From a virus (Duplodnaviria > Heunggongvirae > Uroviricota > Caudoviricetes), in IMG/VR virus record IMGVR_UViG_2706795442_000001: DNA of 19,739 bases; one strand, 5' to 3'. Below the pieces are notes generated by a model that was not told the DNA's origin, searched no databases, and saw nothing but the letters and a program-made list of their open reading frames with translations. Within the stretch, counting starts at the first letter, position 1, and each line of letters starts with the position of its first letter. This document shows positions 4,780-14,475 of this stretch, one piece after another. The position numbers and the translations under genes are program-made.

Positions 4780-5390
4780 TTGTATATTTTTCAGAATGAA
4801 AAATGTAATCAATATATATTTACAATGTGTTTGTTAGTGAGCTAAGCGAACTAACATTACAGATTGTTATATATATTGTAAGTATCTCGATGAAGTGTTT
4901 AGTCGCTAACAAGTTAGCTCCTGTGTGCCAAAAATTACTACGTAATTGTTTGTCACAGTATTTTTTAATTATTATTTTTTAAACACTTAATAACAAACAC
5001 TCAATAAACAATAGTTAAAAAAGTATATACTTATCCCTAATATACTCTCTGTTCTCAAAAACTTTTTTCAAAAAGATACCGCACTTGAAAGCCTAACGGT
5101 AATTACATTGAGACGATACGTACTGAAAAGCACGCCTAAATTCTCCAAGTTAAAGCAACTGTTCTTACGGGAAGTTACAATAACACCCAACCTTTAAGTA
5201 TTTATTGTGCGGACTGGTTTAACCACACTAGAACATAGCTAGATACTCAAAACGAAATAAGTCTAACGTAACAATATACGCAATGCTATGCTGGTCTACT
5301 TTCTAATCATCATCTATTATCGGCGAGACGACCACCTGTCCGTTTATACAAACATAGGACAACTAACAAAACTTAAACTATTTATTTTCT
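4780..5390 (-). ncRNA. Candidate long structured non-coding RNA or leader
   Basis: ORF-free, with many complementary segments, directly below the promoter at 5397-5426. Confidence 0.35.
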
Positions 5391-5666: not shown

Positions 5667-5792
5667 ATGACAAGCAATCCAAAATGCTCTAATTGTAACG
5701 GGCAAACTAAACATATAGACACAGACGAATACGAATGTGTTTATTGCGGTTGTGTTCTTGATGAATATGGAGATGTTATTCATGAGATATAA
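5667..5792 (+). CDS. 41-aa TFIIB-type zinc-ribbon protein
   Basis: Not in the ORF track. AGGAAGGTG SD; MTSNPKCSNCNGQTKHIDTDEYECVYCGCVLDEYGDVIHEI has CxxC-x13-CxxCG; overlaps the HNH start. Confidence 0.8.
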   Translation: MTSNPKCSNCNGQTKHIDTDEYECVYCGCVLDEYGDVIHEI

Positions 5793-6183
5793 AGTTTGTT
5801 CACATTGTGGCAGAAGATACGATGCAAACAAACAATGTATTTGTCAAGTAAATAATTCAAATGAATATAGTAAACAATATTATGAACAAAACAAAGAACG
5901 TAAAAAACAATTAAACAGTAAGCGTTGGAAAACTTTAAGAGAGAGAATTATTAAAAGAGACGGTGGAATGTGTAACAGATGTTGGGTAAGTCTTAATGTT
6001 ATAGAAACAAAAGATTTACAAGTACACCATATCAAACCACGTTCTGAATATCCAGAGTTAATGTATGACCCAAACAACTTAATAACAGTTTGTAAAACAT
6101 GTAACCTTGCATTAGGAACAAAAGGTAGTTTAGATTGGGAAGTACAAAAGTTTAATGAAGATATTGACGAACTAAGATTATAA
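5782..6183 (+). CDS. HNH endonuclease, HK97 gp74-like packaging-associated
   Basis: Start reassigned to ATG 5782 (GGAG SD 5769-5772). SKRWKTLRERIIKRD, CxxC, VHHIKP, NLITVCKTCN; adjacent to terS. Confidence 0.9.
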   Translation: MRYKVCSHCGRRYDANKQCICQVNNSNEYSKQYYEQNKERKKQLNSKRWKTLRERIIKRDGGMCNRCWVSLNVIETKDLQVHHIKPRSEYPELMYDPNNLITVCKTCNLALGTKGSLDWEVQKFNEDIDELRL

Positions 6184-6201
6184 ATAAGGAGGGAAAAGGT
6201 A

Positions 6202-6711
6202 ATGTCAAGAGGTAGACCAAAAGCGCCAGCCCAACTTGTAGACCCAAGCAAAAACCATAGATATAATAAATCGCAAGTTGAACAAATGAAAAAATCAGAA
6301 GATGAATTAAAAGGCAAGTCTGAAAAAGTATCTGACATTCCGGAGTACCTATCAGACCTAGCTAAAGAATACTATTCTTTTATAGTTAATGAAATGGAAG
6401 TAAGTGGTGTTTTAAGTAATCTTGATATTCCAGTGGTCGTTCAGATTTCAGAAACGTTAGCGATTATAAGAGAGTGTGATGCTGATATTCAATTAGACGG
6501 ATTGTGGTATTATGAACCAGACAGAAATGGTAGAGATGTTAAAAAGAAAAACCCTTCTGTCGATATTAGAGATAAAGCACTTAATCAATTTAAACAACTG
6601 GCTGTTCAATTAGGTATGACACCGTCATCAAGAAGTAGTTTAGCAGCAGCTAATATAGAAAAGCAAGAAAAAGAAGAAGACCCATTATTAAAAGTTCTTA
6701 ATCAAAAATAA
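6202..6711 (+). CDS. terS: Terminase small subunit (P27 family)
   Basis: MSRGRPKAP start, P.YL...AK..Y, KKNPSVDI, LGMTPSSR C-terminal motif. Confidence 0.9.
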   Translation: MSRGRPKAPAQLVDPSKNHRYNKSQVEQMKKSEDELKGKSEKVSDIPEYLSDLAKEYYSFIVNEMEVSGVLSNLDIPVVVQISETLAIIRECDADIQLDGLWYYEPDRNGRDVKKKNPSVDIRDKALNQFKQLAVQLGMTPSSRSSLAAANIEKQEKEEDPLLKVLNQK

Positions 6712-6776
6712 TATAAGACCGTCATTTGATTGTAAAAGACTACGGACACTAAGTCAATTAGGTTTAGAGGTGTCCA

Positions 6777-6786
6777 TATACATATT
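6777..6786 (+). promoter_or_regulatory. TATACATA late-region motif, copy 2
   Basis: 1 nt after the GGACAC/GTGTCC stem (6744-6775), upstream of the DUF2828 gene. Confidence 0.5.
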
Positions 6787-6810
6787 AAAACTTGAAAGGA
6801 AGTCGTTCCC

Positions 6811-8319
6811 ATGACCTTTTTAGATAATTTAATTAATGAAGATAATAAAACAGTTACAACAAACGGAGAAAATGGTTATAAATCTACTTTAAGCGGTATT
6901 TTAGATTTATCAACTGAAATTGGAAATAGTAGATTTTTAAATATAGATGATTTAACAGATTTAATAATTGAAGCAAGAGATGAAGATTTTTTATTATATT
7001 CTAAATTAATTGCATATGCAAGAGATGTCCGTCAAGGTGGAGGAGATAAACGTTTAGGTCGTTTAGGTTTTGTTGATATATTTGAAAACATTGATATAAA
7101 TAAAATTCCATTTTTGATTACTTTAATTTCAGAGTACGGGAGTTATAAAGATGTAGTTCTTTTATTGTTAGCGCCAGTTACAAACAAGGATAAAAAAAGA
7201 GCGTTAGCACAACATTTAAATAATATCTTAGATTCAGATGATACCAATGAACAAGTTAGTTTATTAGCTAAATATATGCCAACAGAAACTACTAAAGATG
7301 AAGACATGAAATTTGCATATAGAGAATTTATGAAGTATGTAGATATTACACCTAAAGAATATCGTAAAAGAAACACACGAATCAGAAAGAAACTAGACAT
7401 TGTAGAAACTAAGTTAACTGAAAAACGTTATGAAGATATTGACTATTCTCGTGTTCCGTCACAAGCTAATTTGAAATATAGAGACGCTTTTATTAGAAAT
7501 GACAAAGAGCGTTACACAGATTATTTAGAAAAAGTAGATTCTGGAGAAGAAAAAATAAATAGCGGAACTCTCGCTCCTTATCAAATTGTAGACAAAGTGC
7601 GTTATAGTAATAGTTCTTCATTAAATACTCTATGGAATAATATTCCTGCGCCAACTAACAACGGATTAGAGATTCTACCTGTAGTTGACGTTTCTGGTTC
7701 TATGTATGGACTACCAATGGACGTAGCAGTTTCTTTAGGAATATTTTTATCAGAACATAACAAAGGTCAATTTAAAGACCATTTTATCACATTCTCTAAT
7801 GAACCAGAATTGAAAAAAATTAAAGGTAATACTATTCGTGATAAAGTATCTAGTGTTGAATCTTCTAATTGGGGTATGAATACAGATTTAGAAAAAACAT
7901 TTGATTTAATATTAAAAACAGCAATTAACAATGATTTAACACAAGAAGAGTTACCAAAATCATTACTTATTATTTCAGATATGCAATTTGACGAAGCTAC
8001 AACTGGTGGTTTTTTCGCATCAGATGTACCAAAACCAGATGACACATTCTTTGAAAAAATGAAACATAAGTTTAAACAACATGGATATAAATTACCGTTT
8101 ATAGTATTTTGGAATGTAGGATATGGTAACACTAAACCTGTAGTTAAAACAACTAAAAATACAATTTTAGTATCTGGTTTTAGTCAAAACATATTTAACA
8201 GTATTTGTAATCTAGACCTAGATGATTTAGAAAAATATACACCACTTAAAGCATTATTAGAAATTTTAGAATCAGATAGATATAAAGCGATAGAGGGCTT
8301 ATATCAAACAACGGATTAA
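6811..8319 (+). CDS. DUF2828-family protein (Ro60/TROVE-like helical domain + vWA)
   Basis: YARDVRQGGGDKRLGR, LLAKYMPTE, YSRVPSQA..KYRDAF, MIDAS VVDVSGSM, GMNTDLEKTF, IISDMQFD, IVFWNV. Confidence 0.85.
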   Translation: MTFLDNLINEDNKTVTTNGENGYKSTLSGILDLSTEIGNSRFLNIDDLTDLIIEARDEDFLLYSKLIAYARDVRQGGGDKRLGRLGFVDIFENIDINKIPFLITLISEYGSYKDVVLLLLAPVTNKDKKRALAQHLNNILDSDDTNEQVSLLAKYMPTETTKDEDMKFAYREFMKYVDITPKEYRKRNTRIRKKLDIVETKLTEKRYEDIDYSRVPSQANLKYRDAFIRNDKERYTDYLEKVDSGEEKINSGTLAPYQIVDKVRYSNSSSLNTLWNNIPAPTNNGLEILPVVDVSGSMYGLPMDVAVSLGIFLSEHNKGQFKDHFITFSNEPELKKIKGNTIRDKVSSVESSNWGMNTDLEKTFDLILKTAINNDLTQEELPKSLLIISDMQFDEATTGGFFASDVPKPDDTFFEKMKHKFKQHGYKLPFIVFWNVGYGNTKPVVKTTKNTILVSGFSQNIFNSICNLDLDDLEKYTPLKALLEILESDRYKAIEGLYQTTD

Positions 8320-8327
8320 TTTCCGTT

Positions 8328-8337
8328 GATACATATT
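8328..8337 (+). promoter_or_regulatory. GATACATA late-region motif, copy 3
   Basis: At the base of the CAACGGA/TCCGTTG stem (8309-8328), immediately before the stem-loop array. Confidence 0.5.
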
Positions 8338-8338
8338 A

Positions 8339-8546
8339 AAGACACTTACAGCAATCCTGTTAATTCATATTTTACGCTAATTAAAAATGATTATGTGTCT
8401 TGTTTATTTTTATAAAAGTCTCTTACAGCAAACTTTATTAAACATTTTAAAAGATATAATATTATGTTGAGACTTGATTATATTTAAAAAGGACGTACAG
8501 CAAATTATTATTAAAAAACATGGGAACGTTTTTCAAATTGTCCTTT
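8339..8546 (+). repeat. Array of three 59-63 nt stem-loops, each opening with N-TACAGCAA (candidate ncRNAs)
   Basis: 7-bp stems AAGACAC/GTGTCTT (8339-8401), AAGTCTC/GAGACTT (8416-8475) and AAAGGAC/GTCCTTT (8488-8546); TACAGCAA at 8347, 8424 and 8496. Confidence 0.85.
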
Positions 8547-8556
8547 GATACATATT
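8547..8556 (+). promoter_or_regulatory. GATACATA late-region motif, copy 4
   Basis: Directly after array unit 3, before the AAGGAGG SD of the phosphoesterase. Confidence 0.5.
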
Positions 8557-8573
8557 TTAAGGAGGAATATGGA

Positions 8574-9752
8574 ATGAATGAATATTTAAAACGCAACGAG
8601 GAAAGTGTAACATCATATTGGATAAGATTATATAAAAACAGACAATCTTATGGACTAACATTCAAAGAATGTGGTCAGCTTATGAATGAAGTAACAGGAG
8701 AAGATTGGAACGAAGCAAAATGGCGTAGAGAAATGGAAGGTTATCTTAAAGTATCTAGCTATTTACAAGAAGAAAACCCTACAGGAATTAATACAGAACA
8801 ATTAGAAGAAATTCAATCAGAGAAATTGGAACTTGAAAAAGAAAAAATAAAAATGAGAGACCAAAAACGTGAAATGCGTAACACTCTTAGACAAATGGCT
8901 CGTTTAGAACATTTAGTAGATTATGTTGAATCTGCAACAGAAACATTAGAACCATTTGAGTTACCTGTAGAAAGCAAAGATAAAACTAATGATAGTGAAG
9001 CTATGGTAGTTATTTCCGATTGGCATTTAGGAATGAATATAGATAGCCAATTTAATAGATTTAACGAAGATGTAGCACGATACAGAATCACTAAGTTAAA
9101 GCAGAAAACATATGAAAAAGTAATTAAAGACGACATACAGAGATTGCATATAGCTAACTTGGGTGATTTAATTCATGGTGCTATACATGTGTCAACTAGA
9201 ATACAAAGTGAAGAAGATGTTATTCAGCAAGTTATAAGAGCTTCTGAATATCTGAAAGACTTTATTGGAGATTTCTTGAAATTAGGCATTGATGTTAAGT
9301 ATTATAATGTTATAGGAAATCATGGTCGTGTATCTCCTAACAAACAAGATGTGGCAGGAATAGAAGAAAACTTTGAAAAACTTATTCTAACTATATTAGA
9401 TACGGCATTTAGTTCTCAATTAAATTATACGTCTTTTGATTCTAAAGACGGTCTTATTGAAACTACAATAAAAGGACGAAAGGGCGTTCTAGTACACGGA
9501 GATTATGATAAAGGCGCAAGTATTGTTGCTAAATTACCACAACTATTAGGATATGTTCCAGATTTTGTTATAGGTGGACATTTCCATAGAGAATCAATTA
9601 TGGATTATGGTAAGACGACATGTATTACTAATGGTTCTTTATGTGGTAGCGATGATTATGCAATACAAATGAGATTAGGTGGAAAACCTAGTCAAAAATA
9701 TTTAACTTTCACTGATGAAGGTATTGAAGAAAATAATACGATTTATTTATAA
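8574..9752 (+). CDS. Calcineurin-like metallophosphoesterase with N-terminal helical/coiled-coil extension
   Basis: Start reassigned to ATG 8574 (AAGGAGG 8559-8565). ISDWHLG, NLGDLIHG, GNHGR, VHGD and GGHFH are the five metallophosphoesterase motifs. Confidence 0.85.
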   Translation: MNEYLKRNEESVTSYWIRLYKNRQSYGLTFKECGQLMNEVTGEDWNEAKWRREMEGYLKVSSYLQEENPTGINTEQLEEIQSEKLELEKEKIKMRDQKREMRNTLRQMARLEHLVDYVESATETLEPFELPVESKDKTNDSEAMVVISDWHLGMNIDSQFNRFNEDVARYRITKLKQKTYEKVIKDDIQRLHIANLGDLIHGAIHVSTRIQSEEDVIQQVIRASEYLKDFIGDFLKLGIDVKYYNVIGNHGRVSPNKQDVAGIEENFEKLILTILDTAFSSQLNYTSFDSKDGLIETTIKGRKGVLVHGDYDKGASIVAKLPQLLGYVPDFVIGGHFHRESIMDYGKTTCITNGSLCGSDDYAIQMRLGGKPSQKYLTFTDEGIEENNTIYL

Positions 9753-9764
9753 AAATGACCTTAC

Positions 9765-9793
9765 GGGACAACTCATTTGAGAATGTCCCTTTT
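9765..9793 (+). terminator. Intrinsic terminator
   Basis: GGGACA..CTC/GAG..TGTCCC hairpin followed by TTTTACTTT, just after the phosphoesterase stop. Confidence 0.75.
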
Positions 9794-9980
9794 ACTTTGT
9801 TAAAATTACTTTTACTTATATTGGGATAATTAACGTGATTATCTTTGCGTCTAAAAGTCAACAAGACAAAATGGCGACCATATAGGTAAGAGTATTTTTA
9901 AGAGGGTAAAACCTCGATTTCCTTATTCATATTCATTCATAATAATTTCTCCGAGAGGGCTTTGCCCTCTTGTTGATTAA

Positions 9981-10054
9981 CAGAATGTAGTTCAATTTGG
10001 TAGAATACCACATTTGGGATGTGGTGGTTGTTGGTTCAAATCCAGCCATTCTGA
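9981..10054 (+). tRNA. tRNA-Pro(UGG), CCA not encoded
   Basis: Acceptor CAGAATG/CATTCTG + A73, D stem GTTC/GAAT, anticodon stem CCACA/TGTGG with loop TT-TGG-GA (anticodon 10015-10017), T arm GTTGG-TTCAAAT-CCAGC. Confidence 0.95.
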
Positions 10055-10120
10055 TACTGTCTTTTTGGAGTAGCCACCGTTTCACAGTTTTTAAAACGAT
10101 AACTTTTTTAGATGGCTACA

Positions 10121-10130
10121 TATACATAAT
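10121..10130 (+). promoter_or_regulatory. TATACATA late-region motif, copy 5
   Basis: 1 nt after the GTAGCCA/TGGCTAC stem (10070-10119). Confidence 0.5.
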
Positions 10131-10133
10131 AAA

Positions 10134-10318
10134 ATGTGGATTTCATGTCCACCTATCCTAACTCTGAGACTGTGAGATAGTAACTTAAACTAGCTATTTA
10201 AGTGAATGGAGAGATAGGTTAAAAACTAGATTCTCAATGTGGCTTATTGAGTGCTTTGTTGCTATAGAAAAATAGTAATGAAAGAACAAAGGGTAGTTTT
10301 GAATGGTTTGAGCCCTTT
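10134..10318 (+). ncRNA. Candidate structured non-coding RNA (~185 nt)
   Basis: No ORF; at least five 6-7 bp stems; bracketed by TATACATA copies 5 and 6. Confidence 0.35.
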
Positions 10319-10326
10319 ATACATAT
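10318..10326 (+). promoter_or_regulatory. TATACATA late-region motif, copy 6
   Basis: At the base of the AAAGGG/CCCTTT stem, directly before the terL SD. Confidence 0.5.
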
Positions 10327-10342
10327 AAGGAGATGGTAGATT

Positions 10343-10936
10343 ATGATTGATAATTATATAATTGAACATCCATCTTATCAATATGCTTTATCAGTAGTTA
10401 ATAATGAAATTATTTCTGGAAAGTATATCAAAAAAGAATGTCAACGTTTTTTAGATGAATTAGAAAACGAAGATAGCCCATACTTTTTAGAATTAAAAAC
10501 ATTAAAACTAATAGATGATTTAACAAAGTTACTCAACATGGCTGACGGAATGAAAATTGGTAAAAGTGTTAATGAATCATTAGCACCTTTCCAATGGTAT
10601 TTCTTAGTCAACGCTTTATGTTGGAAATATAAAAACAACCCAGAAAAAAGACGTTATGAAAAATCAACATTACTAATTGCTCGTAAATCTGGAAAGAGTT
10701 TCTTAGTAGCTTTGATTTTCATATTATTGTTGCTACTAGAACCTAAAAATTCAGAGTTCTATTCAGTAGCACCAGACAGAGAACTTTCTTCAATTGTAAA
10801 AAAAGAAATAGGTAAAATGATTGAAGCAAGTCCAGCAATTTCTGATAAGTTTAAAGTTATCAAATCAGAAGTAACTTGTCTTTTAAACAATAGTAAAATG
10901 ATTGCATTGGCTACATCTGATAACCGGATGGACGGT
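10343..10936 (+). CDS. terL: Terminase large subunit, exon 1 (198 codons)
   Basis: Walker A IARKSGKS; ends ...SDNRMDG at the U of the P1 U-G wobble. Confidence 0.9.
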
Positions 10937-10984
10937 AACTCAATTTACTGCCGTCGTTAAATCGGGCAAAATCGGTGGAAAACT

Positions 10985-11013
10985 TTGACAATGCCTATAT
11001 TGTATGATATTAT
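10985..11013 (+). promoter_or_regulatory. Intron-internal sigma-A promoter for the homing endonuclease
   Basis: TTGACA(10985-10990)-17 nt-TATTAT(11008-11013) with TGn; AGGAGG SD at 11020-11025. Confidence 0.7.
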
Positions 11014-11033
11014 ATTATTAGGAGGTTAATAAT

Positions 11034-11705
11034 ATGTTTGGATATATTTATAAAACGACTAATAATATAAATGGAAAAATATATATAGGTAAAAAGCACA
11101 GCAGCTCTTTTATTAAGGATTATTATGGAAGTGGAAAACTTATAAATAGAGCTATTGATAAGTATGGTATAGAAAATTTTAGTGTAGAGATAATAGAAGA
11201 ATGCGAAACACTAGAAGAACTTAATTTAAAAGAAAAATATTATATAAAATATTTAGAATCTAACTATAAATTAGGCAAAGGTTATAATATTGCTTCTGGT
11301 GGAGATGGCGGAAACATTATCAGCTTATTACCAGAAATTGATTATAATTCCTTTATTCTTGATTGTAAAAGAAGAGCAAAAGGAAAAAATAATCCTAATT
11401 ATGGGAATGGTAATAAAATATCTGGGGACAATAATCCATCTAAAAGACCCGAAGTTAGGGAAAAATTAAGCAAAGCTACTAGTGGAAAAAACAATCCAAT
11501 GTATGGCAAAAAAGGAAAATTAAGTCATAGATATGGAACAAAACATTCTGAAGAAACAAGAAACAAAATAAAAGAATCTCTAAAAAATAAAGTATATAAA
11601 AAAGTATGTAAGAATTGCAACATAGAATTTAATACTAAATATGCCAGAACTACATATTGTTGTGCTGATTGTAAAAGAGAATACCGAGATAACCATAATA
11701 AATAA
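11034..11705 (+). CDS. GIY-YIG homing endonuclease with NUMOD3-type repeats and C-terminal Cys zinc finger
   Basis: GYIY...IYIG, GKNNPMYG and KHSEETRNKIKESLK motifs, CKNC...YCCADC. Confidence 0.9.
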   Translation: MFGYIYKTTNNINGKIYIGKKHSSSFIKDYYGSGKLINRAIDKYGIENFSVEIIEECETLEELNLKEKYYIKYLESNYKLGKGYNIASGGDGGNIISLLPEIDYNSFILDCKRRAKGKNNPNYGNGNKISGDNNPSKRPEVREKLSKATSGKNNPMYGKKGKLSHRYGTKHSEETRNKIKESLKNKVYKKVCKNCNIEFNTKYARTTYCCADCKREYRDNHNK

Positions 11706-11725
11706 AAATGTTATGGTATTGTAAC

Positions 11726-11752
11726 GCATAGGAATTGAACCTATGCTTTTTT
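11726..11752 (+). terminator. Terminator-like hairpin overlapping intron P7
   Basis: GCATAGG-7 nt-CCTATGC followed by TTTTTT, 20 nt after the endonuclease stop. Confidence 0.5.
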
Positions 11753-11870
11753 ATTAGCATAGAATATAATATTCCCACGAGGGTCCGACAGTAATATACT
11801 GAAAATGTATGCTGAACTATATGGCGACATATAGAAGTGATTGATAAAAAACTATCACGATAACAAAATG

Positions 11871-12986
11871 AGAAAAGCCAACGTGTTCGTTGCTGATGAA
11901 GTTGGGGCACTTAAAAATAGATACCCAATTGAAGCAATGGAATCATCTCAAATGAATATGATTAATAGAACAGGTATTCTTATTTCTACTGCTTATGATA
12001 GCACAGATAATCCAATGGTGCAAGAGGTAGAGTATGCAGAAAAAGTATTAGATGGTTTGATTGATGATGATAGTTATTTTGCTATGTTGTTCAAACCAGA
12101 TGACGTAAGAGATTGGATGTCAGATAAAACATTATACGAATCTAATCCTTTATGTTACACTGTACCTGCTAACTATGATTATTTAGTTAAGAAAAGAAAT
12201 AAAGCATTAGAGATGTCTGATGCTAAATCTAACTTTTTAACTAAACATTTAAACATATTTATTGACGGAGATATTGAAGAATCATTTGTTACTATAGACG
12301 ATTTAAGACAAGGTAAAATAGCAGAAGAAGATTTTGATTGGGACGGTAGAGAAGTTTATTTAGGTATCGACTTAGCAGAAACTGTCGATAATACTGCTGT
12401 TTCAATGGTTTATTATGATAATGATGAAGATAAATTTTATACAAAATGTTGGTCATTTATTCCACAAGAGAAAGCAACAGAAAAATCAAAAAGAGAACGT
12501 ATTAATTATTTCTTAATGCGTGATAAAGGTTGGGCTTTTTTATGTGGAGATAGAGTAATAAGTCAACGTTTTGTTGAAGATTACGTATTAGGAATAGAAA
12601 AGAAATATAATGTTATAGTAAAAGGTATCGGATATGATAGACGTAATGCAATATCATCTGTAAACAGATTTATAGATGAAGGAGATTACGAGTGTATAGA
12701 AGTAAGACAAAATAGTTCGTCACTTGGTCCAACATTTAAAATGATGAGAGATTATATTATAGATGGCAATTTCCTTTACCAAGAAAATGAACTTTTAGAA
12801 AATAACTATAAAAACGCACGAATAACATACGATACTACAATGAATATATATGTCAATAAAAAGAAAAGTGCTGGTAAAATTGACGGTGTTTATGCCACAG
12901 CAGATGCAATGTATCTATGGAAACAAGACATAGATGACGGATTATTGACAAGTAGTTTTGAAGATAGAGGATTATTTATTTTGTAA
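11871..12986 (+). CDS. terL: Terminase large subunit, exon 2 (371 aa; spliced product ~569 aa)
   Basis: Walker B FVADE, ISTA coupling motif, nuclease YLGIDLAETVD and KIDGVYA. Confidence 0.9.
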   Translation, partial: RKANVFVADEVGALKNRYPIEAMESSQMNMINRTGILISTAYDSTDNPMVQEVEYAEKVLDGLIDDDSYFAMLFKPDDVRDWMSDKTLYESNPLCYTVPANYDYLVKKRNKALEMSDAKSNFLTKHLNIFIDGDIEESFVTIDDLRQGKIAEEDFDWDGREVYLGIDLAETVDNTAVSMVYYDNDEDKFYTKCWSFIPQEKATEKSKRERINYFLMRDKGWAFLCGDRVISQRFVEDYVLGIEKKYNVIVKGIGYDRRNAISSVNRFIDEGDYECIEVRQNSSSLGPTFKMMRDYIIDGNFLYQENELLENNYKNARITYDTTMNIYVNKKKSAGKIDGVYATADAMYLWKQDIDDGLLTSSFEDRGLFIL

Positions 12987-12999
12987 AGGAGGTACGTAA

Positions 13000-14475
13000 A
13001 TGGGATTGATTGACGATTTAATGAAGCAATTTTCAAATAATCAAAATAATCAAAACAAACAACAATTAAATAATATGTATGGTAATGTAAATTCAGCTAT
13101 TGTTGGTACTTCCTCTGGTGGTTCCTCAAATTTTACAGAAGAAGAAGCACTTTCAATATCCTCTGTAGCAGCAGCAACTGATTTAATAACATCCACTATT
13201 GCTAGATTACCAATAAGGTTGTATAAAAAAGGCTCTAAAGGAGAATATGTATCATTAGACGATGATAAAAGAGTTTTTTTATTGAATAAAGAACCTAATA
13301 CAACATTAACTGCTATTACATTAAAGAAACGCATTATATTAGATTATCTTTTTCATGGAAACTCATATATATATCCAGAATGGAACAGAAATGAGTTAAT
13401 GGGATTGCATCATATACCAGCTAAAAACGTTTTTGTTGAAAAATACGTAGATGAAAACATACCTTTTGCAGTTAAAGGTCAATTTGAAGTTTTAGGAGCA
13501 GATGCTCAAAAAATAACTTTATTGCCCGATGAATTAATGATTGTGTTAAAAAATTCTGAGAATGGATTAGATTCGAAGGGTATATTAGACCTTAATTCAG
13601 AGTTATTACAACTTGCATTAAACCAACAACAATATAGTTCTTCTATATTGGAGAATGGTGCATTGCCTTTGGCTGTTTTAACTACTCCATCTAGGGTTAC
13701 AGATAAAGCAATGGCAAGAATTAAACAAAGTTGGGAGACTATCTATAAAGGTGGGAAAAATGCTGGTAAAACGGTTATTTTAGAAGATGGTATGGATTAC
13801 AAACCGGTATCTCTCAACCCTAATGAATTAGATTTAAGTACAAGTAAAGAAGCTGTATTATCAGATATTGCAAGAGTTTTTGGTATTCCAGAGTCAATGC
13901 TTAATGCAGATGCAAATAAATATAATTCTAATGAACAAAACAACTTGCATTTCTTACAGTATACATTAGACCCAATTATTACAGCTCTTGAAAGTGCATT
14001 AAATAAATCTTTACTATTAGAATCTGAAAAAGACAAAGGTTACAGTTTCCAAGTTGACAGAGATTCAATATTGGCAACTACAGAAGCAGAGAAATTTGCT
14101 ACTACTATTCAAGCAATGAAAGGCGGATTAATCTCTGTGAATGAAGCAAGAGCTAGACATAACCTTAAACAAATAACTGATGACTACATGATGTGGGGTC
14201 TAGGCAACATTTTCTACAATAAAGAAGACAGTAAAATGACTATTCCAAATATGGGTGCTATTATTGACCCTAATGACCCAGAAAGTGTAGCAAAAGCTAT
14301 GAATAAAGATTCTGAACAAGCTAGTAATGATTTAAAAGATAAACAAAAAGAACAAGAAAAAGAGAATACTGATAAAGATGACAACGAAGAAAAGACTGAT
14401 GATGAGATGAATGAAGATAAAGAAGACAAAGATAAAAAATCTAACAAGGATAAGGATATAAAAGAAGACAAATAA
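13000..14475 (+). CDS. Portal protein, HK97 family, with charged low-complexity C-tail
   Basis: FLLNKEPN, YLFHGNSY, GKTVILEDGMDY, IARVFGIP, NEAR motifs; follows terL. Confidence 0.92.
   Translation: MGLIDDLMKQFSNNQNNQNKQQLNNMYGNVNSAIVGTSSGGSSNFTEEEALSISSVAAATDLITSTIARLPIRLYKKGSKGEYVSLDDDKRVFLLNKEPNTTLTAITLKKRIILDYLFHGNSYIYPEWNRNELMGLHHIPAKNVFVEKYVDENIPFAVKGQFEVLGADAQKITLLPDELMIVLKNSENGLDSKGILDLNSELLQLALNQQQYSSSILENGALPLAVLTTPSRVTDKAMARIKQSWETIYKGGKNAGKTVILEDGMDYKPVSLNPNELDLSTSKEAVLSDIARVFGIPESMLNADANKYNSNEQNNLHFLQYTLDPIITALESALNKSLLLESEKDKGYSFQVDRDSILATTEAEKFATTIQAMKGGLISVNEARARHNLKQITDDYMMWGLGNIFYNKEDSKMTIPNMGAIIDPNDPESVAKAMNKDSEQASNDLKDKQKEQEKENTDKDDNEEKTDDEMNEDKEDKDKKSNKDKDIKEDK

What the first reader, a model, noticed from the sequence alone, without database searches (positions are those of the whole stretch)
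6712..10342. RNA-handling island inserted between terS and terL
Seen: terS and terL, normally adjacent, are separated by ~3.6 kb containing a DUF2828 TROVE-like/vWA gene, the TACAGCAA stem-loop array, a metallophosphoesterase, tRNA-Pro and a structured tract. Established: Ro60/TROVE proteins bind Y RNAs and damaged RNAs and co-occur with RNA end-healing and ligation enzymes; calcineurin-like domains heal 2',3'-cyclic/3'-phosphate ends in bacterial PNKP. Inference: a late-expressed phage ribonucleoprotein module that protects or repairs RNA (for example tRNA cut by host anticodon nucleases or abortive-infection RNases). No RNA ligase is present in this window, so it would have to lie elsewhere or come from the host.
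Basis: partly seen in the sequence, partly recalled or inferred. Interest (0 to 1): 0.8.

Follow-up and report, generated by a model that had tools for sequence, protein, structure and literature searches.

The report
Phage Ro60-like protein with partner RNAs
The stretch between the two DNA-packaging genes of this Staphylococcus epidermidis phage is a patchwork: it holds a probable Ro60-like RNA-protein particle with three small partner RNAs, beside an unrelated resident nuclease-like enzyme and a tRNA, so it is not one RNA-repair unit.

Summary
terS (6202-6711) and an intron-split terL (from 10343) are separated by a DUF2828/DUF7788 gene, three TACAGCAA stem-loops, a metallophosphoesterase (MPE) and tRNA-Pro.

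The reading as one RNA-repair island is only partly supported.

1. The DUF2828 protein folds as Ro60 (Z 22.5, intact MIDAS).
2. The three about 65-nt stem-loops belong to a widespread "handle" RNA family: a 7-bp end stem followed by ACAGCAA. These RNAs lie beside DUF2828 genes, on the same strand, in unrelated phages. They resemble Dictyostelium Class I RNAs (Rfam RF01414). They are absent from Sextaecvirus relatives that lack the gene. Gene plus RNAs is therefore one cassette and a probable Y-RNA-like particle.
3. The MPE is an older resident. DUF2828-less relatives keep terS-MPE-terL, and in other phage groups it also sits before the terminase. Its fold is nearest DNA exonucleases (PolD DP1, Mre11).
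4. The tRNA slot varies between relatives.
5. Relatives do encode a kinase-phosphatase-ligase (Pnkp-like) enzyme elsewhere, but it does not track DUF2828.

This scan has already reported the DUF2828/ACAGCAA pairing and the Dictyostelium likeness on other DNA. I found no published description. No RNA binding or expression is shown.

The parts
6202..6711 (+). terminase small subunit (left border of the stretch)
   Evidence: PF05119 E 4e-19; phrog_83 E 8e-39
6744..6784 (+). Hairpin (GGACAC/GTGTCC) followed by ATACATA. This is the ancestral terS-MPE intergenic signal, now in front of the DUF2828 gene.
   Evidence: Sequence. It aligns with the terS-MPE spacer of RQ1/SA2/PT94, whose hairpin arms differ in sequence but still pair.
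6811..8319 (+). DUF2828 + DUF7788 protein (phrog_850): Ro60-like ring plus vWA/MIDAS domain
   Evidence: Pfam and PHROG hits. AF2 model pLDDT 90. Ro60 chains are the top hits (Foldseek E 1e-7; VIA Z 22.5, 406 residues, rmsd 4.0). MIDAS residues D293, S295, S297, T358 and D390 are invariant.
8309..8335 (+). hairpin after the DUF2828 stop codon, followed by ATACATA
8336..8405 (+). Handle RNA unit 1: 7-bp end stem AAGACAC/GUGUCUU, then U-UACAGCAA and a variable loop
   Evidence: R1 46.9 bits; RF01414 22.4 bits, full length; fold
8413..8479 (+). Handle RNA unit 2: stem AAGUCUC/GAGACUU plus UACAGCAA
   Evidence: R1 43.1 bits; RF01414 22.4 bits
8485..8550 (+). Handle RNA unit 3: stem AAAGGAC/GUCCUUU plus UACAGCAA. 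Its 3' arm abuts the ATACATA signal at 8548-8554 before the MPE gene.
   Evidence: R1 44.1 bits; sequence
8574..9752 (+). Calcineurin-like metallophosphoesterase (phrog_284) with an N-terminal helical domain. The ORF is open from 8520, but the probable start is 8574.
   Evidence: Motifs D167/H169, D216, N267/H268, H326, H354/H356. Fold: PolD DP1 Z 18.4, Mre11 15.6. Start site.
9795..9980 (+). strongly structured non-coding tract (long hairpin, about 9800-9900) upstream of the tRNA
   Evidence: MFE -53 kcal/mol, z -6.1. 9727-9959 is about 91% conserved in the relatives PT94 and PT1-1; no tRNA is annotated in the PT94 stretch and the PT94/PT1-1 matches stop before the tRNA-Pro, ARAGORN not run.
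9981..10054 (+). tRNA-Pro (UGG) in a slot whose tRNA content varies between relatives
   Evidence: ARAGORN and Rfam, 65.9 bits. The slot holds tRNA-Asn in PT1-4, five tRNAs in TPWB06 and no annotated tRNA in RQ1 or PT94 (ARAGORN not run there).
10343..10960 (+). terL 5' part (right border); the gene is interrupted downstream
   Evidence: phrog_4914 E 1e-66 and PF03354. GIY-YIG/NUMOD3 gene at 11034-11705. terL nuclease part at 11841-12986.

Best explanation
The 3.6 kb between terS and terL is a mosaic at the head of the late operon. It is not one module, and it has three layers.

(1) A resident metallophosphoesterase with a DP1/Mre11-like nuclease fold. It belongs to the neighbourhood of the packaging genes in this genus and in several other large Firmicute siphoviruses.

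(2) A cassette gained by the S. epidermidis branch of Sextaecvirus: a Ro60-shaped DUF2828 protein plus three about 65-nt RNAs. Each RNA carries the same handle, a 7-bp stem joining its two ends followed by UACAGCAA, and a variable body.

(3) A slot with changing tRNA genes, tRNA-Pro here.

Inferred mechanism: the ring protein binds the handle as Ro60 binds the Y RNA stem, and this forms a late-expressed particle. Elsewhere the variable bodies copy tRNA arms or whole tRNA-like domains. They may let the particle act on tRNA or tRNA-directed enzymes, as decoy, chaperone or tether for a nuclease or repair enzyme.

Shown here: the fold, the RNA family, the gene-RNA linkage, the tRNA linkage and the layered history. 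Inferred only: transcription of the RNAs, binding, and any role in RNA protection or repair.
For: Protein:
- The AF2 model (pLDDT 90) matches Ro60 over its whole length. VIA gives Z 22.5 against 9.7 for the best vWA-only chain.
- The MIDAS residues are invariant.

RNA family:
- In 80 IMG/VR DUF2828 loci, ACAGCAA with a closing stem occurs 223 times on the gene's strand. The opposite strand has 33, and 20 shuffles give 29-52.
- 92 units lie in the 1 kb upstream of the gene and 29 in the 1 kb downstream.
- All 7 stem pairs show double changes.
- On loci not used for training, model R1 gives 34 of 34 hits on the gene's strand. It gives none in seven DUF2828-less control loci.
- Alsa_2, whose protein is 43% identical, has three such units behind its gene.

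Cassette:
- RQ1, SA2 and TPWB06 have no DUF2828 and no R1 hit anywhere in their genomes.
- The insertion borders are visible in the spacer alignment.
- Between the window and S-CoN_Ph2 the array is 99.6% identical, while the ORF is 87.9% identical.

Class I likeness:
- A model built only from Dictyostelium RNAs (RF01414) places its best whole-genome hit beside DUF2828 in 4 of 5 phage records.
- The described features of Class I RNAs match (PMC7919456).

tRNA link:
- 37 of 80 loci have a tRNA within 1 kb, against 21 expected by random placement inside the same loci. All but one locus have the tRNAs on the same strand.
- The same link is seen in Felixounavirus, Listeria, Bacillus, Enterococcus and Campylobacter phages.

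MPE as resident.

Late expression:
- The same hairpin+ATACATAT signal precedes DUF2828, the MPE, terL and the genes downstream of the capsid and tail-tube genes.
Against: - No transcript, RNA end or RNA-protein contact was observed. Contigs of RNA libraries did not cover the array and cannot show transcription.
- The Pfam TROVE model and the Rfam Y RNA/YrlA models do not match.
- The RF01414 score of 22.4 bits is below its gathering score of 41.5.
- The units used for the covariation count were chosen for having a stem.
- The near-identity of the array between relatives could come from recombination or endonuclease-driven co-conversion rather than selection. An HNH gene sits next to the array in S-CoN_Ph2.
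- The bodies of this window's three RNAs show no clear tRNA mimicry.
- The MPE follows DUF2828 directly in Sextaecvirus, L045, L080 and, as phrog_704, Bacillus phage 136. Some functional tie is therefore not excluded.
Confidence: 0.7

Rival explanations
1. One reading: one late-expressed RNA-repair island. The Ro-like protein holds damaged RNA, the neighbouring MPE heals 2',3'-cyclic or 3'-phosphate ends, and a ligase encoded elsewhere seals them. This would counter host anticodon nucleases.
For: - Ro60 fold.
- The MPE is catalytically intact.
- The MPE lies directly downstream of DUF2828 in four lineages.
- A Pnkp-like kinase-phosphatase-ligase is present in S-CoN_Ph2, BE02 and Alsa_2.
- RtcB and Rnl lie within 5 kb of DUF2828 in Listeria phage LP-083-2.
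Against: - The MPE is present at the same place in five relatives that lack DUF2828.
- It sits before the terminase in phiCD211 and SPbeta-like phages.
- Only 2-3 of 80 DUF2828 loci hold it.
- Its best folds are DNA exonucleases. No Pnkp or lambda-phosphatase chain is among the top 50, which does not exclude them.
- The Pnkp-like enzyme already has a phosphatase domain.
- The Pnkp-like enzyme is present in PT94 without DUF2828, and absent from TP1 and Bacillus 136, which have DUF2828.
Confidence: 0.12
2. The three stem-loops are not genes for small RNAs. They are cis-acting signals: terminators, RNA-stability hairpins, protein operators or late-promoter parts that regulate DUF2828 and MPE expression.
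For: - They lie between two genes.
- Unit 3 abuts the ATACATA signal and the MPE ribosome-binding site.
- In most phages the units lie just upstream of the DUF2828 ORF, where a leader element would lie.
- The folding energies are unremarkable, z -0.7 to -1.6.
Against: - The same handle occurs upstream or downstream of the gene, in arrays of up to nine units, scattered among tRNA genes kilobases away, and wrapped around tRNA-like domains. One example is L010 2984-3046, 43 bits to the tRNA model.
- In Alsa_2 the array has its own sigma-70-like promoter.
- The design equals that of Dictyostelium Class I RNAs, which are expressed about 60-nt RNAs.
Confidence: 0.1
3. The DUF2828 protein is a vWA-type assembly or packaging co-factor rather than an RNA-binding protein. 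Its place near the terminase genes would reflect that role.
For: - It lies next to terS/terL here, in Felixounavirus TP1, Bacillus phage 136 and Alsa_2.
- vWA co-chaperones act in virion assembly in some viruses (PMC7824862).
Against: - The whole-length Ro60 match includes the HEAT ring, not only the vWA domain.
- In Tourach, Listeria, Campylobacter and Enterococcus phages the gene lies among early, tRNA or replication genes.
- This reading gives no account of the co-travelling RNA family.
Confidence: 0.05

Closest known systems
Ro60 (Rsr, TROVE + vWA) with Y RNAs, including bacterial and phage YrlA/Yrl RNAs (Chen et al. 2014, PMC4201824; Thermus phage phiLo Ro60, PMC12135203)
   Same: - Ring of helical repeats plus a vWA/MIDAS domain (Z 22.5 to Xenopus Ro60, 14-15 to phiLo Ro60).
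- Partner RNA genes lie beside the protein gene on the same strand.
- The RNAs are closed by a stem joining their 5' and 3' ends.
- In relatives the RNA bodies mimic tRNA.
   Different: - About 10-18% sequence identity, and no hit to the Pfam TROVE model. The family is filed as DUF2828/DUF7788.
- The RNA signature is ACAGCAA next to the 5' arm, not the CGAA/GGUCCGA bulged helix.
- There is no Rfam Y_RNA or YrlA match in the window.
- The units are shorter (about 65 nt) and occur in arrays, often inside tRNA clusters.
Class I RNAs of dictyostelid social amoebae (Rfam RF01414; Kjellin et al. 2021, PMC7919456)
   Same: - Length about 60 nt.
- A short covarying stem joins the two ends.
- A conserved motif lies directly after the 5' arm, with T3, C6, C9, A10 and A11 as in (A/T)CTTACAGCAA.
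- Starts are A-A-G-like and ends C-U-(U)-G-U-like.
- The rest of the RNA is variable.
- The Dictyostelium-only model finds the phage units.
   Different: - The score is below Rfam's gathering cut-off (22.4 against 41.5 bits).
- There is no DUSE promoter.
- Class I RNAs were reported as unique to Dictyostelia.
- Their known direct binder is the RRM protein Rnp1A/CIBP.
- A DUF2828 partner in Dictyostelium was not tested here.
Bacterial Pnkp (kinase + calcineurin-type phosphatase + ligase) RNA repair enzyme
   Same: - Relatives of this phage encode a 766-aa protein with exactly these three domains (TIGR04075 E 1e-19).
- The island's MPE belongs to the same superfamily.
   Different: - The island's MPE is a separate protein without kinase or ligase domains.
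- It has an N-terminal helical domain.
- It is nearest to DP1/Mre11 nucleases by fold.
- It is linked to terminase genes rather than to RNA enzymes.

Membership tests
Ro60 / TROVE ribonucleoprotein | HEAT-repeat ring followed by a vWA domain with a MIDAS site | tested here: met
   VIA Z 22.5, rmsd 4.0 over 406 residues, model 9-472 on Ro60 11-537. D293-x-S295-x-S297, T358 and D390 are invariant.
Ro60 / TROVE ribonucleoprotein | Sequence signature of the TROVE domain (Pfam) | tested here: not met
   Pfam gives only DUF7788 and DUF2828. There is no PDB hit by sequence. Some UniRef entries of the family are nevertheless named 'TROVE domain-containing'.
Ro60 / TROVE ribonucleoprotein | Y RNA partner with the conserved Ro-binding helix (CGAA / GGUCCGA); Rfam Y_RNA or YrlA | tested here: not met
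   No Y_RNA or YrlA match in the window at E up to 10. The partner candidates carry ACAGCAA instead.
Ro60 / TROVE ribonucleoprotein | Direct binding of the protein to the RNA | not testable with these tools
   Needs EMSA, RIP or CLIP.
DUF2828-associated ACAGCAA handle RNAs (undescribed family seen repeatedly in this scan) | End-to-end stem of about 7 bp, 1-2 nt, ACAGCAA, variable body; same strand as and close to a DUF2828 gene | tested here: met
   Three units score 43-47 bits with R1, and the next best hit scores 16 bits. The units were part of the training set.
Dictyostelid Class I RNA (RF01414) | Short stem joining the ends, 11-nt motif after the 5' arm, about 60 nt | tested here: met
   Units 1 and 2 align to all 56 model positions. 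Motif positions 3, 6, 9, 10 and 11 are T, C, C, A, A in units 1 and 2; unit 3 has G at position 3 (PMC7919456).
Dictyostelid Class I RNA (RF01414) | Rfam gathering score (41.5 bits) | tested here: not met
   22.4 bits, E 0.05 on 281 nt; E 0.004 on the whole S-CoN_Ph2 record.
Dictyostelid Class I RNA (RF01414) | DUSE promoter about 60 nt upstream; expression as a discrete small RNA | not tested
   DUSE is a eukaryotic element and was not looked for. Expression could not be shown.
Pnkp-type RNA end-healing phosphoesterase (for the MPE at 8574-9752) | Calcineurin-like catalytic motifs | tested here: met
   D167/H169, D216, N267/H268, H326, H354/H356.
Pnkp-type RNA end-healing phosphoesterase (for the MPE at 8574-9752) | Fusion or operon with a polynucleotide kinase and an RNA ligase | tested here: not met
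   No such domains in the protein or in its neighbours. The neighbours in relatives are terS, tRNAs and terL.
Pnkp-type RNA end-healing phosphoesterase (for the MPE at 8574-9752) | Closest structural relatives are Pnkp or lambda-type phosphatases | tested here: inconclusive
   Top rows are PolD DP1 (Z 18.4), MJ0936, Vps29, Mre11/SbcD and LpxH. Pnkp is not among the 50 rows shown, which does not exclude it.
Mre11/SbcD/DP1-type nuclease | MPE nuclease core with a partner (Rad50/SbcC or polymerase) and DNA substrate | tested here: inconclusive
   The core fold matches (weak NCBIfam DP1 hit). No partner gene was sought genome-wide, and activity is unknown.

The most novel reading that the evidence does not exclude
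The DUF2828 ring protein and the stem-ACAGCAA RNAs would be one ancient ribonucleoprotein shared by phages, giant viruses and eukaryotes. The unexplained Class I RNAs of Dictyostelium would then be its cellular form. They would bind a DUF2828-family protein there, possibly the uncharacterised pull-down partner DDB_G0281243. In phages the particle would present tRNA-like bodies, to protect or to subvert the tRNA pool during infection.
Probability: 0.3. Interest if true: 0.85.

Novelty: new variant of a known kind. Interest (0 to 1): 0.62.

Why it matters
Ro60/Y RNA particles are a classic but narrow family. A second, sequence-unrelated-looking branch would widen the field if it holds. This branch has its own RNA signature, is present in hundreds of phage genomes (707 records by tblastn) and is tied to tRNA clusters. 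It would also give a concrete hypothesis for the Dictyostelium Class I RNAs, which are reported as lineage-specific and of unknown mechanism.

This window is a good test bed:
- The host and phage group (S. epidermidis; 6ec, SEP9, BE02) are cultivable.
- The cassette is small: one gene and three RNAs.
- Nature supplies near-isogenic controls, namely Sextaecvirus members without the cassette.

The analysis also warns against reading gene adjacency at this hot spot as function, because the MPE is a packaging-neighbourhood gene.

Tried and rejected
- Sequence search of both proteins against the PDB gave nothing meaningful.
- PADLOC had no match for either protein. NCBIfam had none for DUF2828.
- A full-text search for 'DUF2828' found 5 papers, none on phages or RNA. 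Burroughs & Aravind 2016 and Avesson 2011 are not held. The supplement of Chen 2014 is not held.
Relatives with 57-80% identical proteins (P0009-P0023) could therefore not be fetched, and orthologous covariation inside the genus could not be measured. The array is 99.6% identical in the two reachable classes.
- A second homologous-protein run with a giant-virus DUF2828 returned only environmental viral proteins. It did not show whether Dictyostelium has the family.
- Sequencing runs: all holders are kept as contigs. Three true RNA libraries hold short pieces (7500-8004, 8193-8343, 8571-9244, 8806-8947, 9835-10055, 10169-10400) but nothing across 8344-8570. This proves neither expression nor silence.
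- The window's own assembly is not held. G001 is a 54-kb fragment without the Pnkp-like gene, so the ligase is shown only in relatives.
- MPE compared with the Tourach MPE (phrog_1649): no similarity.
- I considered that the tRNA-Pro flanks hide a further handle RNA. R1 gives at most 10 bits there.

Full report
WHAT IS THERE

The window is from a Sextaecvirus, a group of about 90-kb Staphylococcus epidermidis siphoviruses that includes 6ec, SEP9 and BE02. Megablast of 6000-13000 finds 34 phage records, and 20 of them cover at least 80% of the query. The best is BE02 at 98.6% identity.

On the + strand the order is:
- an HNH gene (5737-6183);
- terS (6202-6711, PF05119);
- a 502-aa DUF2828+DUF7788 protein (6811-8319, phrog_850 "RNA-binding protein", E 2e-135);
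- a 254-nt spacer;
- a calcineurin-like metallophosphoesterase (MPE; phrog_284);
- a 590-nt spacer with tRNA-Pro(UGG) at 9981-10054;
- terL from 10343.

terL is itself interrupted by a GIY-YIG/NUMOD3 endonuclease gene (11034-11705) before its nuclease half (11841-12986). Portal, protease and capsid genes follow.

TACAGCAA occurs at 8347, 8424 and 8496. There are 4 copies in the window against 0.57 expected, and 0 of 200 shuffles reach 4.

One correction concerns the MPE start. Homologues begin at residue 19 of the long ORF. AAGGAGG lies 8 nt before the ATG at 8574, and BE02 is annotated from that ATG. The third stem-loop is thus upstream of the gene and does not span its start codon.

THE DUF2828 PROTEIN IS RO60-SHAPED

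An AlphaFold model built on 47 homologues has pLDDT 90.3 and pTM 0.90. Foldseek's first 12 PDB matches are all Ro60 chains: Xenopus, human, Deinococcus Rsr and Thermus phage phiLo. They cover the whole length (E 1e-7 to 1e-4). vWA domains follow.

VIA-align gives Z 22.5 (rmsd 4.0 over 406 residues, model 9-472 on Ro60 11-537). The best chain that matches the vWA part alone reaches Z 9.7. The MIDAS residues D293, S295, S297, T358 and D390 are invariant in the family alignment.

By sequence the family is not recognised as TROVE.

THE THREE STEM-LOOPS BELONG TO A WIDESPREAD RNA FAMILY THAT TRAVELS WITH THIS GENE

Each unit has a 7-bp stem joining its ends: AAGACAC/GUGUCUU, AAGUCUC/GAGACUU and AAAGGAC/GUCCUUU. 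One or two nucleotides follow, then UACAGCAA and an AT-rich body.

The same design stands behind the DUF2828 gene of Alsa_2, a Twort-like myovirus whose protein is only 43% identical. It has three units, with stems AAGACCC, AAAGCCC and AAGACAC followed by AUACAGC(C/U)AA. A TTGCAA-17-TGTTATAAT promoter-like site precedes them.

The design also stands next to the gene, on the same strand, in:
- Mycobacterium phage Tourach;
- a Felixounavirus;
- Listeria, Campylobacter and Enterococcus myoviruses;
- a Tsamsa-like Bacillus phage.

In 80 IMG/VR loci fetched with the protein alignment alone, ACAGCAA with a closing stem of at least 6 bp occurs 223 times on the gene's strand. The other strand has 33, and 20 dinucleotide shuffles give 29-52. 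Of the 223 units, 92 lie in the 1 kb upstream of the ORF and 29 in the 1 kb downstream. Elsewhere there are a few per kb.

In an alignment of 67 units, all seven stem pairs show changes on both sides: 95.5% of cells are paired, and the covariation score is 0.83 against 0.25 in shuffles. The units were selected for having a stem, so this count describes the family rather than proving it.

The better test uses a covariance model (R1) on loci not used to build it. All 34 hits at E up to 0.01 are on the gene's strand, most beside the gene. There are none in seven control loci without DUF2828.

In the window, R1 finds only the three units (43-47 bits; the next hit scores 16 bits).

Many units in other phages enclose anticodon-arm-like hairpins with 7-nt CUUUUAA-type loops, T-arm-like sequences (37 units) or a near-complete tRNA-like domain. 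One example is L010 2984-3046, which scores 43 bits on tRNA model positions 6-65. The bodies of this window's three units show no clear tRNA mimicry.

LIKENESS TO DICTYOSTELIUM CLASS I RNAS

No Rfam family reaches its threshold. In a focused search, units 1 and 2 align to the whole of RF01414 (Dicty_Class_I_RNA) at 22.4 bits, E 0.05.

I then searched five complete phage records with that model, which was built only from amoebal sequences. Its best hit in the whole genome lies beside the DUF2828 gene, on the same strand, in four of them: TP1, S-CoN_Ph2, Tourach and Alsa_2.

Kjellin et al. 2021 (PMC7919456) describe Class I RNAs as follows:
- about 60 nt long;
- starting AAG and ending CUGU;
- closed by a short stem with compensatory changes;
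- carrying an 11-nt motif after the 5' arm, in which T3, C6, C9, A10 and A11 are almost invariant;
- otherwise variable;
- "unique to dictyostelid social amoebas".

Units 1 and 2 here read (A/T)CTTACAGCAA, which satisfies those five positions. The score stays below Rfam's cut-off, so I record a strong resemblance and not membership.

The preprint version lists an uncharacterised pull-down partner, DDB_G0281243. I could not check whether it is a DUF2828 protein.

GENE AND RNAS ARE ONE CASSETTE, AND THE ISLAND IS LAYERED

Five relatives have no DUF2828 anywhere in their genomes. They are PT94, RQ1, PT1-4 and SA2, from other Staphylococcus species, and TPWB06, whose record names Arcanobacterium as host. 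All five keep the order HNH-terS-MPE-(spacer)-terL-portal. RQ1, SA2 and TPWB06 also have no R1 hit genome-wide. S-CoN_Ph2 has exactly the three units.

The spacer alignment shows what happened. The ancestral terS-MPE spacer, a hairpin plus TATACATA, now sits before the DUF2828 gene. The ORF and its three RNAs were inserted ahead of the MPE's ribosome-binding site.

The tRNA slot varies: tRNA-Pro here, tRNA-Asn in PT1-4, five tRNAs in TPWB06, and none annotated in RQ1 or PT94. In S-CoN_Ph2 an HNH endonuclease gene has entered between the array and the MPE.

The stretch is therefore a hot spot with three layers of different age.

Between the window and S-CoN_Ph2 the identities differ sharply:
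- RNA array: 99.6% (236/237);
- tRNA spacer: 99.2%;
- DUF2828 ORF: 87.9%;
- MPE ORF: 90.3%.

This may reflect constraint on the non-coding parts. It may equally reflect recombination or endonuclease-driven co-conversion.

THE MPE

All five calcineurin-type motifs are invariant, so the enzyme is probably active. Its model (pLDDT 88) has an N-terminal helical domain, including one helix of about 50 residues, and an MPE core.

The core is nearest to the 3'-5' proofreading exonuclease DP1 of archaeal PolD (Z 18.4, rmsd 2.9 over 223 residues). Next come MJ0936 (16.8), Vps29 (15.9), Mre11 (15.6), SbcD and LpxH (about 15). NCBIfam gives only a weak DP1 hit.

Full-length relatives lie just before the terminase genes in several phages:
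- phiCD211 (MPE, a 299-aa protein, TerL, portal);
- the SPbeta-like phage BUCT083;
- TPWB06;
- L080 (DUF2828, MPE, ClpP-like protein, a 312-aa protein, TerL);
- Bacillus phage 136, as the sister family phrog_704.

Only L045 and L080 among the 80 DUF2828 loci have the MPE directly downstream. L011 has it 8 kb away on the other strand.

The MPE is thus tied to the packaging neighbourhood and only now and then to DUF2828. Its most likely role is a DNA-directed nuclease. This is an inference from fold and synteny, and I hold it at about 0.4. RNA end healing is not excluded, but nothing here points to it.

THE LIGASE "ELSEWHERE"

S-CoN_Ph2 encodes a 766-aa protein with three domains: an AAA_33 kinase (residues 4-135), a Metallophos domain (175-378) and RNA_lig_T4_1 (485-701). 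TIGR04075 bacter_Pnkp matches it at E 1e-19. This is the Pnkp architecture.

Its distribution is as follows:
- present in BE02, there as two pieces (residues 1-70 and 202-766);
- present in PT94, which lacks DUF2828;
- present in Alsa_2;
- absent from RQ1, SA2, TPWB06 and PT1-4;
- absent from TP1 and Bacillus phage 136, which have DUF2828.

The window's own genome is not held.

LINK TO tRNA GENES

DUF2828 adjoins tRNA arrays on the same strand in the Felixounavirus, the Listeria, Bacillus, Enterococcus and Campylobacter phages. In the Felixounavirus the order is a DUF5681 protein, DUF2828, 26 tRNAs beginning with tRNA-Pro, then terL.

In the 80-locus survey:
- 53 loci have a tRNA within 10 kb.
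- 37 have one within 1 kb. Random placement inside the same, already tRNA-rich, loci would give 21.
- All but one locus have the tRNAs on the gene's strand.

EXPRESSION

A hairpin directly followed by ATACATAT stands at eight intergenic sites of the late strand. These include the sites before DUF2828, before the MPE and before terL, and the sites after the capsid gene and after the tail-tube gene. This suggests common late control; it is an inference.

Public RNA libraries hold only contigs with patchy pieces of the stretch and none across the array. This is uninformative.

WHAT IS KNOWN, AND NOVELTY

Canonical Ro60 with CGAA-type Y RNAs is known in phages (PMC4201824, PMC12135203). ROT/TROVE proteins are noted in jumbo phages (PMC7824862).

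I found no paper on DUF2828 in phages or on ACAGCAA RNAs outside Dictyostelia.

After reaching these results I consulted the scan's notes. The DUF2828/ACAGCAA pairing has been reported many times on other DNA, and the Class I likeness at least eight times. My tests agree with these notes.

This window adds three things:
- a within-genus presence/absence contrast that shows gene and RNAs move as one cassette;
- a clean separation of the MPE and the tRNA from that cassette;
- a cultivable experimental system.

VERDICT

- Observation: confirmed.
- Interpretation: partly supported. The Ro-like RNP idea is well supported by computation. The unitary "RNA-repair island" with the MPE as healing enzyme is not.
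- Nothing biochemical is shown.

Noticed in passing
window 10343-12986: terL is split. An ATPase part (10343-10960) and a nuclease part (11841-12986) flank a GIY-YIG/NUMOD3 homing-endonuclease gene (11034-11705), probably inside a group I intron. Relatives carry other numbers of inserts: their terL is annotated in 2-6 pieces.
   Followed up: no
window 5616, 6778, 8329, 8548, 10122, 10319, 16841, 19504 (+ strand): A hairpin of variable sequence is directly followed by ATACATAT at eight intergenic sites of the late strand. The hairpin before DUF2828 differs in its arms from that of RQ1/SA2 but still pairs. This is a candidate late promoter or RNA-processing signal, and relatives encode a sigma-like factor (L003 42552-43535).
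   Followed up: partly
window 9795-9980: Strongly structured non-coding tract (long hairpin, about 9800-9900; MFE -53 kcal/mol, z -6.1) between the MPE terminator and tRNA-Pro. About 91% conserved in PT94, PT1-1 and PMBT8, where no tRNA is annotated in the PT94 stretch and the matches stop before the tRNA-Pro. Function unknown.
   Followed up: partly
window 8320-8556 and 9753-10342 against L002: The non-coding tracts are 99.6% and 99.2% identical to S-CoN_Ph2, while the flanking DUF2828 and MPE ORFs are 87.9% and 90.3% identical. The cause is either constraint or recent recombination/co-conversion.
   Followed up: partly
L003 1542-3842 (-); BE02 record 10061-11958: Relatives encode a 766-aa kinase + metallophosphatase + Rnl1-type ligase (Pnkp-like) next to a guanylate-kinase-like gene. 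In BE02 it matches in two pieces, with residues 71-201 missing.
   Followed up: partly
L002 9116-9682: In S-CoN_Ph2 and several relatives an HNH endonuclease gene is inserted between the RNA array and the MPE gene. This is more evidence that the spot is a landing site for mobile genes.
   Followed up: no
L010 2949-3080; L028 8496-8566; L084 6643-6705 and others: The bodies of handle RNAs in other phages hold anticodon-arm look-alikes (5-bp stem, 7-nt loop such as CUUUUAA) or a tRNA lacking its acceptor ends (43 bits on tRNA model positions 6-65).
   Followed up: partly
L144-L147 about 5184-5226; L117, L120-L122 about 6018-6025: In giant-virus contigs, stem-closed units with the variant ACAGCGA lie just downstream of the DUF2828 gene. 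Some UniRef entries name these viral proteins 'TROVE domain-containing'.
   Followed up: no
L009 1249-1596: ARAGORN calls a tmRNA-like gene (tag AKNEELLAVA) inside the tRNA cluster upstream of DUF2828 in Enterococcus phage EfsSzw-1.
   Followed up: no
L006 5506-5877: In Felixounavirus TP1 the order is a DUF5681 protein, DUF2828, 26 tRNAs (the first is tRNA-Pro), then terL. This parallels the order terS, DUF2828, tRNA-Pro, terL seen here.
   Followed up: no
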